From: Escherichia coli
GTDB lineage: Bacteria; Pseudomonadota; Gammaproteobacteria; Enterobacterales; Enterobacteriaceae
Assembly (NCBI RefSeq): GCF_013122565.1
Contig: NZ_CP053258.1
DNA: 64,000 bases
Reading direction: 5' to 3' (one strand)
Position numbers and translations under genes: made by a program. Below, in pieces: positions 26,269-44,015 of this stretch. The notes beneath the pieces are model-generated. The model was not told the DNA's origin. It made no database searches and saw only the letters and a list, made by a program, of their open reading frames with translations. The first letter of the stretch is position 1, and each line of letters begins with the position of its first letter.

Positions 26269-26353
<85 letters not shown>

Positions 26354-26530
26354 TCACTTTCAAAAGTTCCTGAACTCTCAAGCGAATCCGCAATTAAATA
26401 TTCTGCCCAAGCGGTGAAGGATGAGAAGATTCGACCAAGGTTCGACTCGAGCGTCAGCGAGAGAGCGTTGCCGCAGGCAACGACCCGAAGGGCGAAGCGC
26501 GCAGCGCTAGTAATCCTTCCCCCACCACCA
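26354..26530 (+). repeat. rtT-type repeat unit downstream of tRNA-Tyr, ending in a copy of the tRNA 3' end
   Basis: Unit ends with aatccttcccccaccacca, identical to the last 19 nt of the tRNA; the following ~50 bp re-start the unit in degenerate form. Confidence 0.75.
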
Positions 26531-41121: not shown

Positions 41122-41390
41122 CGTTGACTCCTTTTACAAAGTTGAACACTAAGTGTGGTCAACAATATCTACTCTTGCCAAAACATAAGAATTTTCATGT
41201 CAGACTGTTCTTAAGAAACGCTAAAACAAACATTGTCTAAACGTATTACTTATTTTTATGCCCAAATGAGTAAAAAATCGACAGCGCGGTAAAAATTCGT
41301 AAAATGTTACCGATATCCAGACACTTTCTGTTATTTTTCCTACCTATTTTTTACATTTTCGATAAATTCATCTGCAAAGGGATAACCATA

Positions 41391-42491
41391 ATGTCAAATG
41401 CTCAAGAGGCGGTAAAAACCCGCCACAAGGAGACTTCGCTTATTTTCCCGGTTCTGGCGCTGGTAGTGCTGTTCCTGTGGGGAAGCAGCCAGACACTACC
41501 AGTGGTCATTGCCATCAATCTTCTTGCGCTTATTGGTATTTTAAGTAGCGCCTTTAGTGTTGTCCGTCATGCGGACGTATTAGCCCATCGCCTGGGAGAA
41601 CCTTACGGTTCGCTTATTCTTAGCCTTTCAGTGGTTATTCTTGAAGTCAGTTTGATTTCAGCTTTAATGGCAACCGGCGACGCCGCGCCAACGCTAATGC
41701 GTGATACGCTCTATTCGATCATTATGATTGTTACCGGTGGGCTGGTCGGCTTTTCATTATTGTTGGGCGGTCGTAAGTTTGCCACCCAATATATGAATCT
41801 GTTTGGTATCAAGCAGTATTTAATTGCGCTGTTCCCCTTGGCGATAATCGTACTGGTATTTCCAATGGCTCTGCCTGCGGCGAATTTTTCAACCGGTCAG
41901 GCGTTACTGGTAGCATTAATTTCTGCGGCAATGTATGGCGTATTTTTGCTGATCCAGACCAAAACGCATCAAAGTTTGTTTGTCTACGAGCACGAAGATG
42001 ACAGTGATGACGACGACCCGCATCACGGTAAACCGTCTGCCCATAGCAGCCTGTGGCATGCTATCTGGTTGATTGTCCATCTGATTGCTGTTATTGCAGT
42101 CACCAAAATGAACGCCAGCCCGCTGGAGACTTTGCTCGACAGCATGAATGCCCCTGTCGCCTTTACTGGCTTCCTGGTGGCACTGTTGATTCTGTCGCCG
42201 GAAGGTTTAGGTGCGTTAAAAGCAGTGTTGAACAACCAGGTTCAGCGCGCGATGAATCTGTTCTTTGGTTCAGTGTTAGCAACCATTTCGCTTACCGTAC
42301 CTGTCGTGACGCTAATTGCCTTTATGACGGGTAACGAATTGCAGTTTGCACTTGGTGCGCCAGAAATGGTGGTGATGGTGGCCTCTTTAGTGCTGTGCCA
42401 TATCTCCTTCTCCACCGGACGTACTAACGTGCTCAATGGCGCAGCGCATCTGGCACTGTTTGCCGCCTATTTGATGACGATATTTGCCTGA
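41391..42491 (+). CDS. chaA: Ca2+/H+ (Na+/H+) antiporter ChaA (366 aa)
   Basis: MSNAQEAVKTRHKETSLIFPVLALVVLF; multi-TM with acidic HEDDSDDDDPHH loop; ATG at 41391. Confidence 0.95.
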   Translation: MSNAQEAVKTRHKETSLIFPVLALVVLFLWGSSQTLPVVIAINLLALIGILSSAFSVVRHADVLAHRLGEPYGSLILSLSVVILEVSLISALMATGDAAPTLMRDTLYSIIMIVTGGLVGFSLLLGGRKFATQYMNLFGIKQYLIALFPLAIIVLVFPMALPAANFSTGQALLVALISAAMYGVFLLIQTKTHQSLFVYEHEDDSDDDDPHHGKPSAHSSLWHAIWLIVHLIAVIAVTKMNASPLETLLDSMNAPVAFTGFLVALLILSPEGLGALKAVLNNQVQRAMNLFFGSVLATISLTVPVVTLIAFMTGNELQFALGAPEMVVMVASLVLCHISFSTGRTNVLNGAAHLALFAAYLMTIFA

Positions 42492-42780
42492 CAGTTATAT
42501 CTCCTCCGATGACGAAAATCGGGGGAGATAATGTAAATTCCTGCTTATTTTATTTCTTCATACTACCTGGACAGGTCGTTAATCAGAATTGCGAGCCTGT
42601 ACCACAACCTGCACGAAAACACTGCAACAGCTGTTGAAAAACCGGAATGTACTCTTTATTGCAAACATTTCAGGAATGAAGTGAAGATGAATTGAGACGT
42701 AGTATCCACACCAAGCCGGCGTTATCCGGTGAGGCGCAATGTTGCGGGGGCTTTATCCCTGGTGGCATTGGTTGCTGGAA

Positions 42781-42848
42781 AGAGAAAACCCCCGCACGTT
42801 GAGAGGTACAACCTGACAACAGAACGGGGGCTAATCTTGAACCAGAAC
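42781..42848 (-). ncRNA. rdl: Candidate Rdl-type antisense RNA (antitoxin of Ldr), ~66 nt; ends approximate
   Basis: Minus strand has -35 TTGTAA / 17 bp / -10 TATTCT, then a ~66-nt unit ending in CCCCCG...CGGGGG hairpin plus UUUUCUCUUU, placed antisense in the ldr leader. Confidence 0.45.
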
Positions 42849-42895
42849 AATTCAAGAATAGCCGCAAAATGTTGTCATTACAACAAGGCGGCTAT

Positions 42896-43003
42896 ATGAC
42901 GCTCGCGCAGTTTGCCATGATTTTCTGGCACGACCTGGCAGCACCGATCCTGGCGGGAATTATTACCGCAGCGATTGTCGGCTGGTGGCGTAACCGGAAG
43001 TAA
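42896..43003 (+). CDS. ldr: Ldr-family type I toxin peptide (35 aa)
   Basis: ATG at 42896; translation MTLAQFAMIFWHDLAAPILAGIITAAIVGWWRNRK, a single TM helix with basic tail; below the ORF-track length cutoff. Confidence 0.85.
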   Translation: MTLAQFAMIFWHDLAAPILAGIITAAIVGWWRNRK

Positions 43004-43151
43004 GGTGAAAACGGGCGTCAGGCTGCCGTGATGGCAATATGCGCCCGAAACCGGCCGCAGGGGTAACAGCCTGCGGCCTTTTTTGTATCCGGCACCCATG
43101 AAAAAAGTCTTAACGCAGAACGCTAATACTTTATTTTTCAAGCAAAAAAAA

Positions 43152-44015
<864 letters not shown>

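What the first reader, a model, noticed from the sequence alone, without database searches (positions are those of the whole stretch)
42781..43003. Single-copy ldr/rdl type I toxin-antitoxin module between chaA and kdsA, invisible to the ORF track
A 35-codon ORF (42896..43003) encodes MTLAQFAMIFWHDLAAPILAGIITAAIVGWWRNRK, the hallmark of Ldr membrane toxins. On the opposite strand, in the toxin leader, there is a promoter-like TTGTAA/17 bp/TATTCT followed by a ~66-nt unit ending in a GC hairpin and U-run, consistent with an Rdl antisense RNA. From memory K-12 carries three tandem long-direct-repeat copies here; this window has room for only one (chaA-kdsA gap ~660 bp), so copy number differs.
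Basis: partly seen in the sequence, partly recalled or inferred. Interest (0 to 1): 0.5.

Follow-up and report, generated by a model that had tools for sequence, protein, structure and literature searches.

The report
Known ldr/rdl toxin-antitoxin, single copy
This is an ordinary, intact copy of the well-known E. coli Ldr/Rdl module, a 35-residue membrane toxin gene held in check by a small antisense RNA; it is present once here instead of three times as in the K-12 lab strain, and about a quarter of complete E. coli genomes have the same one-copy arrangement.

Summary
The ORF at 42896..43003 encodes a full-length Ldr toxin (Pfam Ldr_toxin, E=5e-25). It is one residue from K-12 LdrA/LdrC (S29G) and one from LdrB (T9I). 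On the opposite strand, 42783..42848 is a full-length Rfam rdlD match (86 bits; threshold 50). It is identical to K-12 rdlA over 66/66 nt and has a conserved promoter and terminator.

The chaA-kdsA gap is 660 bp with one repeat unit (42612..43086). K-12 MG1655 has 1729 bp and three units.

Single copy is not unusual. In a systematic sample of 59 chromosomes from 5,426 complete E. coli genomes, 14 had one copy, 17 had two, and 28 behaved like three-copy K-12. Five of eight other species-level genomes carrying this locus also have one copy. The exact peptide occurs on at least 1000 public contigs and is routinely annotated.

Across 48 homologous transcripts, the Rdl promoter spacing, a 5' leader hairpin and a 3'-UTR element that pairs with the ldr ribosome-binding site and start codon are all conserved. 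This fits the published hok/sok-like model, which remains unproven.

Verdict: real, correctly interpreted, already known, low interest.

The parts
42612..43086 (.). One long-direct-repeat (LDR) unit, flanked by a unique 120-bp chaA-side segment (42492-42611) and a unique 65-bp kdsA-side segment (43087-43151)
   Evidence: blastn against the K-12 chaA-kdsA spacer: window gap positions 121-595 match each of the three K-12 units at 97.0-98.3%. The K-12 repeat period is 535 bp (alignment).
42676..42705 (+). Inferred ldr promoter: -10 TAGTAT at 42700-42705, weak -35 ATGAAG/TGAAGT around 42676-42682
   Evidence: TAG(A/T)AT is the only strongly conserved upstream element in about 48 homologues. It is not called by the simple consensus scan. 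Inferred, not mapped.
42713..43086 (+). Inferred ldr mRNA (~374 nt): 183-nt 5' UTR, 35-codon ORF, ~83-nt 3' UTR
   Evidence: The start is placed 7-8 nt after the conserved -10, where conservation begins (AAGCCGG). The end is at the terminator. MFE -165.9 kcal/mol, z=-6.7. It differs from the K-12 ldrA transcript by 1 nt.
42715..42730 (+). 5'-terminal hairpin of the mRNA (GCCGG/CCGGU)
   Evidence: Predicted. The Kluyvera copies read AATCCCG...CGGGAG in its place in alignment A1. This was read by eye from the alignment and not counted formally.
42739..42816 (+). 25-codon leader ORF (MLRGLYPWWHWLLERENPRTLRGTT) preceded by GAGG at 42731-42734; candidate for the 'ldrX' leader ORF proposed in the literature
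   Evidence: Across 48 homologues the start is ATG in 40, GTG in 5, ACG in 2 and GCG in 1. The length is 14-33 codons, or the ORF is fused in frame to ldr. It is therefore not conserved as a coding sequence.
42738..42800 (+). Conserved leader hairpin (AAUGUUGCGGGGG...CCCCCGCACGUU); its 3' half is part of the Rdl target
   Evidence: RNAalifold consensus, columns 27-92. Changes at columns 28/29 and 90/91 keep the pairs (AU->GU, UG->UA or CG). Mean column identity over 42730-42782 is 0.94.
42783..42848 (-). Rdl antisense RNA (antitoxin), 66 nt: single-stranded 5' tail plus a long GC-rich terminator hairpin and U-run
   Evidence: Rfam RF01813 at 86.3 bits, model 1-66/66. Fold z=-4.55. Terminator-like site 42807..42788. 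66/66 identical to K-12 rdlA.
42855..42883 (-). Rdl promoter: -35 TTGTAA (42883..42878), 17-bp spacer, -10 TATTCT (42860..42855)
   Evidence: Sequence. The spacer is 17 bp in 48/48 homologues and both hexamers are conserved.
42885..42891 (+). Shine-Dalgarno region AAGGCGG of ldr
   Evidence: 4-8 nt upstream of the ATG. Mean column identity over 42885-42898 is 0.92.
42896..43003 (+). ldr toxin gene, 35 codons plus TAA
   Evidence: Pfam Ldr_toxin PF13940, E=5.4e-25, 1-35/35. Matches PDB 5LBJ LdrD at E=2e-10. Differs from LdrA/C by S29G and from LdrB by T9I. The third codon position is the most variable across homologues: 0.73, against 0.80 and 0.89 for positions 1 and 2.
43014..43045 (+). Conserved 3'-UTR element predicted to pair with the start-codon region (42898-42903), the SD (42888-42892), the stretch upstream of the SD (42871-42879) and the 5' leader (42733-42737)
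   Evidence: MFE fold and RNAalifold consensus of 48 sequences. 98.2% of 1199 cells are paired, against 30-61% in slid controls. 7 cells changed on both sides (0/500 shuffles reached this), but only 3 pairs did (76/500).
43053..43086 (+). Intrinsic terminator of the ldr mRNA (GGCCGCAGG...CCUGCGGCC + U6)
   Evidence: The stem keeps pairing through both-side changes at several positions in homologues (columns 356-383).

Best explanation
The chaA-kdsA spacer holds one intact Ldr/Rdl type I toxin-antitoxin module, essentially the K-12 LDR-A copy.

The plus strand gives a long, highly structured mRNA (about 42713-43086). It encodes a 35-residue inner-membrane peptide that arrests growth and drains ATP when over-made. 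The minus strand gives a 66-nt antisense RNA, Rdl (42848->42783). It comes from its own promoter inside the toxin leader and is perfectly complementary to the 5' UTR, 48-113 nt upstream of the start codon.

Rdl pairing with the leader keeps the toxin untranslated, and the duplex is a substrate for RNase III. In addition, the ldr ribosome-binding site and AUG are predicted to be masked within the mRNA itself by a conserved 3'-UTR element. This would make the full-length transcript translationally inert, as in hok/sok.

What is shown here: identity of both genes, the anatomy, conservation of promoters, helices and ORF, and copy number. What comes from experiments on K-12 LDR-D and LDR-A: toxicity, Rdl expression and repression. 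What is inferred: the transcript ends, the 3'-UTR masking, and any role of the leader ORF.

The single copy is a common natural allele of a locus whose copy number changes by unequal recombination between 535-bp tandem units.
For: - Toxin: Pfam Ldr_toxin full length, E=5.4e-25. One residue from K-12 LdrA/C and from LdrB. Full-length match to the solved LdrD structure 5LBJ. The exact peptide is on at least 1000 contigs named Ldr-family toxin.
- Antitoxin: Rfam rdlD at 86.3 bits against a threshold of 50. 66/66 identical to rdlA. Stable fold, z=-4.55.
- The whole transcript differs from K-12 ldrA mRNA by 1 nt.
- The Rdl promoter spacer is 17 bp in 48/48 homologues from five genera. The ldr -10 is conserved.
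- Long-range masking helices are paired in 98.2% of cells across 48 sequences, against 30-61% in slid controls.
- Copy number: K-12 has 3. In the sample of 59 E. coli chromosomes, 14 had one copy, 17 had two and 28 behaved like K-12. The complete genome HH97 has the same 681-bp arrangement without indels and the same peptide.
- Literature: LdrD is toxic and RdlD represses it (Kawano 2002, as summarised in PMC4147584 and PMC8309996). LdrA causes an ATP drop within 2 min (PMC8309996). RNase III-cut dsRNA forms at the rdlD/ldrD overlap (PMC7373196). A hok-like organisation with a leader ORF has been proposed (PMC4147584, PMC8594479).
Against: - Nothing here shows transcription, toxicity or repression in this strain.
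- Reviews state that the molecular mechanism of Rdl action is 'currently unknown' (PMC8309996).
- Covariation support for the 3'-UTR masking helices is weak. Most changes are one-sided (G-C/G-U/A-U), only 3 pairs change on both sides (76/500 shuffles reach that), and shuffled columns pair nearly as often (97.9%) because the columns are so conserved.
- A local alternative hairpin (42858-42865 with 42888-42895) could also mask the SD, and it shows no covariation.
- The leader ORF loses its start codon in 3 of 48 homologues and has no conserved length or frame. K-12 LDR-C carries a frameshift in it.
- NCBIfam has no HMM for the peptide, so that library gives no support.
Confidence: 0.92

Rival explanations
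1. The single copy is an assembly artefact: two or three nearly identical 535-bp tandem units were collapsed into one consensus unit by a short-read assembler.
For: The units are 97% alike in K-12. Relative to K-12 the window's unit is a mosaic: C-like at its 5' edge, B-like at 42657, 42697 and 42980, and A-like in the Rdl region and at its 3' edge. No complete E. coli genome matches the 681-bp region better than 98.2%.
Against: About 24% of complete, mostly long-read E. coli genomes have exactly this one-unit arrangement. Strain HH97 aligns over all 681 bp without indels and has the same I9/G29 peptide. The surrounding 14 kb is also only 99.2% identical to the best genome, so the divergence reflects lineage and not a chimeric consensus. 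Five of eight other species-level genomes are also single copy.
Confidence: 0.04
2. The module is a decaying relic: the sequence is recognisable, but the toxin or antitoxin is no longer functional in this strain.
For: Chromosomal type I loci do decay in some lineages (PMC2887945). One homologue at the same locus, Pseudocitrobacter vendiensis L037, has a premature stop. No deletion phenotype is known for any Fst/Ldr system (PMC7472228).
Against: The ORF is intact. The only coding difference from LdrA (S29G) is the residue found in K-12 LdrB, and position 29 varies naturally (S/G/N) among homologues. Rdl, both promoters, the SD and both terminators are identical or near-identical to K-12 LDR-A.
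Confidence: 0.03
3. The real product is the 44-residue protein starting at the upstream in-frame ATG 42869 (MLSLQQGGYMTLAQ...), not the 35-residue peptide.
For: the ORF listing gives 42869..43003 as the ORF. Some older database entries carry a 44-aa version (P0007).
Against: ATG 42869 has no SD. It lies inside the Rdl promoter spacer and is not conserved outside the E. coli A/B/C-type copies; the homologues read ACG, CAG or CGG there. The 35-aa start has AAGGCGG 4-8 nt upstream and is invariant. The Pfam model and the solved LdrD peptide are both 35 residues and match end to end. PGAP aa.
Confidence: 0.02
4. Mechanistic rival: Rdl acts through the leader ORF, the hok/mok/sok-style 'ldrX' model. 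Ldr translation would depend on ribosomes translating the 25-codon leader ORF (42739-42816), and Rdl would block that translation. In this model Rdl does not act directly on mRNA structure or stability.
For: The leader ORF has a GAGG 4 nt upstream. It runs into the Rdl-complementary region. It starts with ATG or GTG in 45 of 48 homologues. The model was proposed by Gerdes & Wagner 2007 and Kawano 2012, as cited in PMC4147584 and PMC8594479. A weak Rfam hit of the hok/sok leader model covers 42746-42898 and ends at the ldr AUG (31 bits, below threshold).
Against: The start codon is ACG or GCG in 3 homologues. Each change preserves pairing in the leader hairpin, so the hairpin appears to be what selection maintains. 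The stop position and frame are not conserved: 14-33 codons, or fused to ldr. K-12 LDR-C is frameshifted. Rdl does not cover the leader ORF's start: its target begins 44 nt downstream. The ORF's stop at 42816 is 80 nt from the ldr AUG, so classical coupling is not obvious.
Confidence: 0.3

Closest known systems
E. coli K-12 LDR-A (ldrA/rdlA, b4419/b4420), the kdsA-proximal unit of the chaA-kdsA tandem array
   Same: Same locus and orientation. Rdl is 66/66 identical. The transcript differs by 1 nt, and the peptide by S29G. The 3' junction with the kdsA flank is the same.
   Different: The unit here abuts the chaA flank directly, with no LDR-B or LDR-C. There are eight substitutions upstream of the transcript (42614-42697), several of them matching K-12 LDR-B or LDR-C.
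E. coli K-12 LDR-D (ldrD/rdlD) at bcsG-yhjV, the experimentally characterised member (Kawano et al. 2002)
   Same: Same architecture: leader, antisense RNA in the 5' UTR, 35-aa ORF, conserved 3'-UTR element and terminator. The leader at 42726-42800 is nearly identical.
   Different: A different chromosomal locus and a separate paralogue group. The peptide is 57% identical and the transcript 78% identical. The Rdl apical loop and 5' tail differ.
hok/mok/sok of plasmid R1 and its chromosomal homologues
   Same: A long, stable, structured toxin mRNA. The antisense RNA targets the leader upstream of the toxin start. There is a leader ORF and predicted 5'-3' and 3'-UTR pairing that masks the translation start (PMC4147584, PMC8594479).
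   Different: The toxin family is unrelated (Ldr belongs to Fst/Ldr, not Hok). Rdl does not cover the leader ORF's start. The leader ORF does not overlap the toxin ORF here. No 3' processing or activation step has been shown for ldr. The Rfam hok/sok leader model scores only 31 bits against a threshold of 59.
Fst/RNAII (par of pAD1) and other Fst/Ldr-superfamily toxins of Firmicutes
   Same: The peptide carries the superfamily signature: a transmembrane helix with PxxxG (P17-G21), a conserved tryptophan (W30/W31), then a basic C-terminus RNRK (sequence; PMC2887945, PMC7472228).
   Different: In Fst systems the antisense RNA is encoded at the 3' end of the toxin gene, and regulation differs (PMC2887945, PMC7472228).

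Membership tests
Ldr toxin family (Pfam PF13940) | About 35-residue peptide matching the Ldr_toxin profile end to end | tested here: met
   E=5.4e-25, query 1-35, model 1-35/35. One residue from K-12 LdrA/C and from LdrB.
Ldr toxin family (Pfam PF13940) | Fst/Ldr signature: hydrophobic transmembrane helix, conserved Trp after it, and a cluster of charged residues at the C-terminus | tested here: met
   The sequence AAPILAGIITAAIVGWWRNRK has W30/W31 followed by R32, R34 and K35. The feature is defined in PMC2887945. The peptide aligns over 35/35 residues with the solved helical LdrD peptide 5LBJ.
Ldr toxin family (Pfam PF13940) | Over-expression arrests growth or kills the cell | not testable with these tools
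   Shown for K-12 LdrD and LdrA (PMC4147584, PMC8309996, PMC12643268). Inferred here from the single-residue difference.
Rdl antisense RNA (Rfam RF01813 rdlD) | Sequence and structure match above the curated gathering score | tested here: met
   86.3 bits against 50, model 1-66/66. 66/66 identical to rdlA.
Rdl antisense RNA (Rfam RF01813 rdlD) | Encoded opposite the 5' UTR of the ldr mRNA, with its own promoter and terminator, and not overlapping the SD or start codon | tested here: met
   Rdl is at 42783-42848 and the ldr AUG at 42896. The promoter is at 42855-42883, with a 17-bp spacer conserved in 48/48 homologues. The terminator was found.
Rdl antisense RNA (Rfam RF01813 rdlD) | Actually transcribed as a short-lived RNA of about 66 nt | not testable with these tools
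   Known for K-12 (Kawano 2002 via PMC4147584; PMC7373196). No expression data are available for this strain.
Type I toxin-antitoxin system | The antisense RNA represses synthesis of the toxin from its mRNA | not testable with these tools
   RdlD co-expression relieves LdrD toxicity in K-12 (PMC4147584). Here only perfect complementarity and conservation are shown.
Long direct repeat (LDR) array as defined in K-12 | Several ~535-bp units repeated in tandem between chaA and kdsA | tested here: not met
   One unit in a 660-bp gap, and no other copy in the 64-kb window. It is a member of the repeat family by sequence but is not repeated at this locus. This is a common allele.
hok/sok-type regulation | Conserved leader ORF whose translation is required for toxin translation and whose start is the antisense target | tested here: inconclusive
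   A leader ORF is present (42739-42816). However, its start is lost in 3/48 homologues, its length and frame vary, and Rdl does not cover its start.
hok/sok-type regulation | Long-range pairing of the 3' end with the 5' leader or translation start, keeping the full-length mRNA inert | tested here: inconclusive
   The pairing is predicted and 98.2% conserved across 48 sequences. Covariation is weak: 7 cells changed on both sides (0/500 shuffles), but only 3 pairs did (76/500).

The most novel reading that the evidence does not exclude
The most novel reading still open concerns the family's mechanism, not this locus. First, the ldr mRNA may be kept silent by the conserved 3'-UTR element (43014-43045), which pairs with the SD, the AUG and the 5' leader. 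Toxin synthesis would then need a 3'-processing or refolding step, as in hok or aapA1. Second, the hypervariable patch under the Rdl 5' tail (42831-42848) may set copy-specific recognition between paralogous Rdl RNAs and ldr mRNAs. Neither has been shown experimentally for Ldr/Rdl, and reviews call the mechanism unknown. A naturally single-copy strain such as this one would be a cleaner background for testing both than three-copy K-12.
Probability: 0.35. Interest if true: 0.3.

Novelty: already known. Interest (0 to 1): 0.08.

Why it matters
It matters little as a discovery. The module, its locus, its peptide allele and its copy-number variability are all on record.

It has some practical value. 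It shows that ORF-length filters hide 35-codon toxin genes. It also shows that automated RefSeq annotation lists the toxin but not its antisense antitoxin. Finally, K-12's three tandem copies are one state among several: roughly a quarter of complete E. coli genomes, and most related genera, have one copy at chaA-kdsA. A single-copy strain is a simpler genetic background for deleting the chaA-kdsA module or dissecting Rdl control, whose mechanism is still unresolved.

Tried and rejected
- NCBIfam HMM scan of the 35-aa peptide, the 44-aa extension and the 56-aa leader-frame ORF gave no hits. The library has no Ldr HMM, so this is uninformative.
- The simple sigma-70 scan found no promoter in 42480-43160. 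I therefore relied on conservation across 48 homologues instead.
- The 56-codon GTG ORF 42729..42899, which ends in ATGA overlapping the ldr start, looked like a mok-style coupling ORF. I rejected it: K-12 LDR-B and LDR-C have an early stop in it, and in LDR-D that frame is fused to ldrD.
- The local SD-masking hairpin 42858-42865/42888-42895 is 94% paired across homologues but shows no covariation. Its 5' arm overlaps the Rdl -10, so its conservation is uninformative.
- Three papers could not be read: Kawano 2012 (RNA Biol) and Masachis & Darfeuille 2018 were looked up and are not held, and Kawano 2002 (Mol Microbiol) was not looked up. Their content is cited only through reviews that summarise them.
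- The mSystems 2024 BLASTn paper on type I TA copy number does not treat ldr.
- My first hand-count of the Rdl promoter coordinates was off by one; it was corrected.
- I did not determine the strain or phylogroup of the window beyond E. coli. The best match is 99.2% over 14 kb.

Full report

- ATG 42896 to TAA 43003 encodes MTLAQFAMIFWHDLAAPILAGIITAAIVGWWRNRK.
- The mechanical ORF list shows only a 44-codon version from an upstream in-frame ATG at 42869. Both versions are below the 60-aa default, which explains the "invisible to the ORF track" remark.
- On the minus strand, Rfam's rdlD model (RF01813) matches 42783..42848 over its full 66 positions, at 86.3 bits against a gathering score of 50. 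It is the only such match in the 64 kb.
- The promoter-like TTGTAA/17/TATTCT lies at 42883..42878 and 42860..42855. The transcript start is at 42848.
- The RNA ends in a GC-rich hairpin and U-run. It folds at -26.7 kcal/mol, z=-4.55.
- The chaA-kdsA gap is exactly 660 bp.

**Identity.**

- The peptide matches Pfam Ldr_toxin end to end, E=5.4e-25. It also matches the solved LdrD peptide 5LBJ.
- It differs from K-12 LdrA/LdrC only by S29G and from LdrB only by T9I.
- The exact sequence is already in public collections on at least 1000 contigs, under the name "type I toxin-antitoxin system toxin Ldr family protein".
- The antisense RNA is 66/66 identical to K-12 rdlA. The whole inferred transcript (42713-43086) differs from the K-12 ldrA transcript by one nucleotide, 42980.
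- The window is E. coli, 99.2% identical over 14 kb to the nearest complete genome.

**Copy number.** K-12 MG1655 has ldrA/rdlA, ldrB/rdlB and ldrC/rdlC in a 1729-bp spacer with a 535-bp period. The window has one unit (42612-43086) between a 120-bp chaA-side flank and a 65-bp kdsA-side flank. No other copy exists in the window.

This is not rare.

- I took 60 records at even steps through the ranking of 5,440 matching records from 5,426 complete genomes; 59 of them were chromosomes with the locus. Of those, 14 had one copy and 17 had two. In the remaining 28 the two flanks were not joined, as for K-12 itself.
- A shorter query gave the same result: 7 of 29 were single copy.
- Single-copy genomes include ST131. 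Strain HH97 has the same 681-bp arrangement without indels and the same peptide.
- Among eight further species-level genomes with an LdrA-type module at chaA-kdsA, five have one copy: two Pseudocitrobacter, two Kluyvera and E. coli E69. Three have two copies: a Pseudocitrobacter MAG, E. whittamii and Escherichia sp. E1V33.
- One copy is therefore probably the older state. The tandem arrays are lineage-specific amplifications, as Fozo et al. concluded for type I loci in general (PMC2887945).
- Relative to K-12, the window's unit is a mosaic of A-, B- and C-type sites. This fits recombination or gene conversion among units. I cannot tell whether this particular lineage kept one copy or lost extra ones.

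**Anatomy and mechanism.** I collected 48 distinct LDR transcripts from Escherichia, Citrobacter, Kluyvera, Pseudocitrobacter and Salmonella. Several features are conserved across them.

- The ldr -10 (TAGTAT here; TAG(A/T)AT generally) is conserved, and sequence conservation begins just downstream at AAGCCGG. This places the mRNA start near 42713.
- The Rdl promoter has an invariant 17-bp spacer, with -10 TATTCT or TATCCT.
- The untranslated leader is more conserved than the coding sequence (0.94 against 0.80 mean column identity). The coding sequence varies most at third codon positions, as expected for a real gene.
- The full-length mRNA folds far better than shuffles, z=-6.7.
- In both the single-sequence fold and the 48-sequence consensus, a 3'-UTR element (43014-43045) pairs with four regions: the region just after the AUG, the Shine-Dalgarno sequence, the stretch upstream of it, and the 5' leader.
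- These 25 pairs are formed in 98.2% of cells, against 30-61% when partners are slid. Nearly all variation is one-sided, however, so covariation support is modest: 7 cells changed on both sides (0/500 shuffles), but only 3 pairs did (76/500).
- Without the 3' UTR, a local hairpin is predicted to mask the SD instead. It shows no covariation, and its 5' arm overlaps the Rdl -10.

A 25-codon leader ORF (42739-42816, GAGG upstream) is the likely "ldrX" of the literature. Its start is ATG in 40 homologues, GTG in 5, ACG in 2 and GCG in 1, and each change preserves the leader hairpin. Its length and frame vary, and it is frameshifted in K-12 LDR-C. The hairpin therefore looks more constrained than the ORF.

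**What the literature adds.**

- LdrD over-production is toxic and RdlD counteracts it. Gerdes & Wagner and Kawano proposed a hok/sok-like mechanism through ldrX, still unconfirmed (PMC4147584, PMC8594479).
- A 2021 review calls the mechanism "currently unknown" (PMC8309996).
- RNase III-cut dsRNA accumulates at the rdlD/ldrD overlap in vivo (PMC7373196).
- LdrA sits in the inner membrane, drops ATP within 2 minutes, and is counteracted by YajC (PMC8309996, PMC12643268).

My best account is therefore as follows. Rdl pairs with the leader and prevents translation, with duplex cleavage by RNase III. On top of that, the mRNA masks its own start site. The first part rests on K-12 experiments and near-identity. 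The second is a conserved prediction.

**Rivals.**

- Assembly collapse of tandem units is unlikely, given identical arrangements in complete genomes.
- A dead relic is unlikely, given the intact ORF and K-12-identical control elements.
- The 44-aa start is unlikely, because its ATG is unconserved and has no SD.
- The ldrX-coupling model remains a live mechanistic alternative.

**Verdict.** The observation and the interpretation are both right, but the feature is already known and the copy-number difference is a common polymorphism. Interest is low. The only open question it touches is the unresolved mechanism of Rdl control, for which a naturally single-copy strain would be a convenient background.

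Noticed in passing
window 26269-26530 (+): A tRNA gene (26269-26350) followed by an RtT RNA element (RF00391, 121.5 bits, 26400-26530), a tRNA/rtT-type locus.
   Followed up: no
window 42746-42898 (+): The Rfam 'sok' model RF01794 weakly matches the ldr leader (31.4 bits, threshold 59, E=1.9e-4). The match ends exactly at the ldr AUG. The T1TAdb paper reports the same kind of Ldr/Hok cross-classification by RNA features (PMC8594479).
   Followed up: partly
window 42831-42848: The target of the Rdl 5' tail and transcription start is the most variable patch of the whole transcript across 48 homologues (mean column identity 0.79, against 0.88-0.94 elsewhere in the UTRs). K-12 copy A versus copies B/C, and strain HH97, differ from one another exactly there. 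This could give copy-specific Rdl recognition.
   Followed up: partly
L037:1443-1535 (Pseudocitrobacter vendiensis, chaA-kdsA locus): The ldr homologue has a premature stop (30 aa; TGG->TAG at codon 31), an example of decay at the same locus.
   Followed up: no
L047 (503-bp contig labelled Bacillus sp. EB106-08-02-XG196): The contig carries an E. coli-type LdrD gene (MPFAELGMAFWHDLAAPVIAGILASMIVNWLNKRK) and is labelled with coverage 0.66. It is very probably enterobacterial contamination of that assembly.
   Followed up: no
L002 (E. coli HH97, RefSeq/PGAP) versus L001 (MG1655): PGAP-annotated genomes list the 35-aa Ldr CDS but no rdl RNA gene, whereas curated MG1655 lists both. The antitoxin is therefore systematically missing from routine annotation.
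   Followed up: partly
L040:4800-5990 (Escherichia sp. E1V33): This genome has two tandem LDR units at chaA-kdsA. The second encodes FWHNLAAP instead of the otherwise invariant FWHDLAAP, so the pattern search missed it. Pattern-based copy counts can therefore undercount.
   Followed up: yes
window 41304-42491 (+): The mechanical ORF call extends chaA 29 codons upstream. The ChaA homologue starts at 41391 (MSNAQ...), giving the 366-aa protein annotated in other E. coli.
   Followed up: partly
rows H69 and H81 (E. coli strains 98190 and G5): IS200C and IS1A insertions lie within the chaA-kdsA LDR region in some complete genomes, a further source of length variation at this locus.
   Followed up: no
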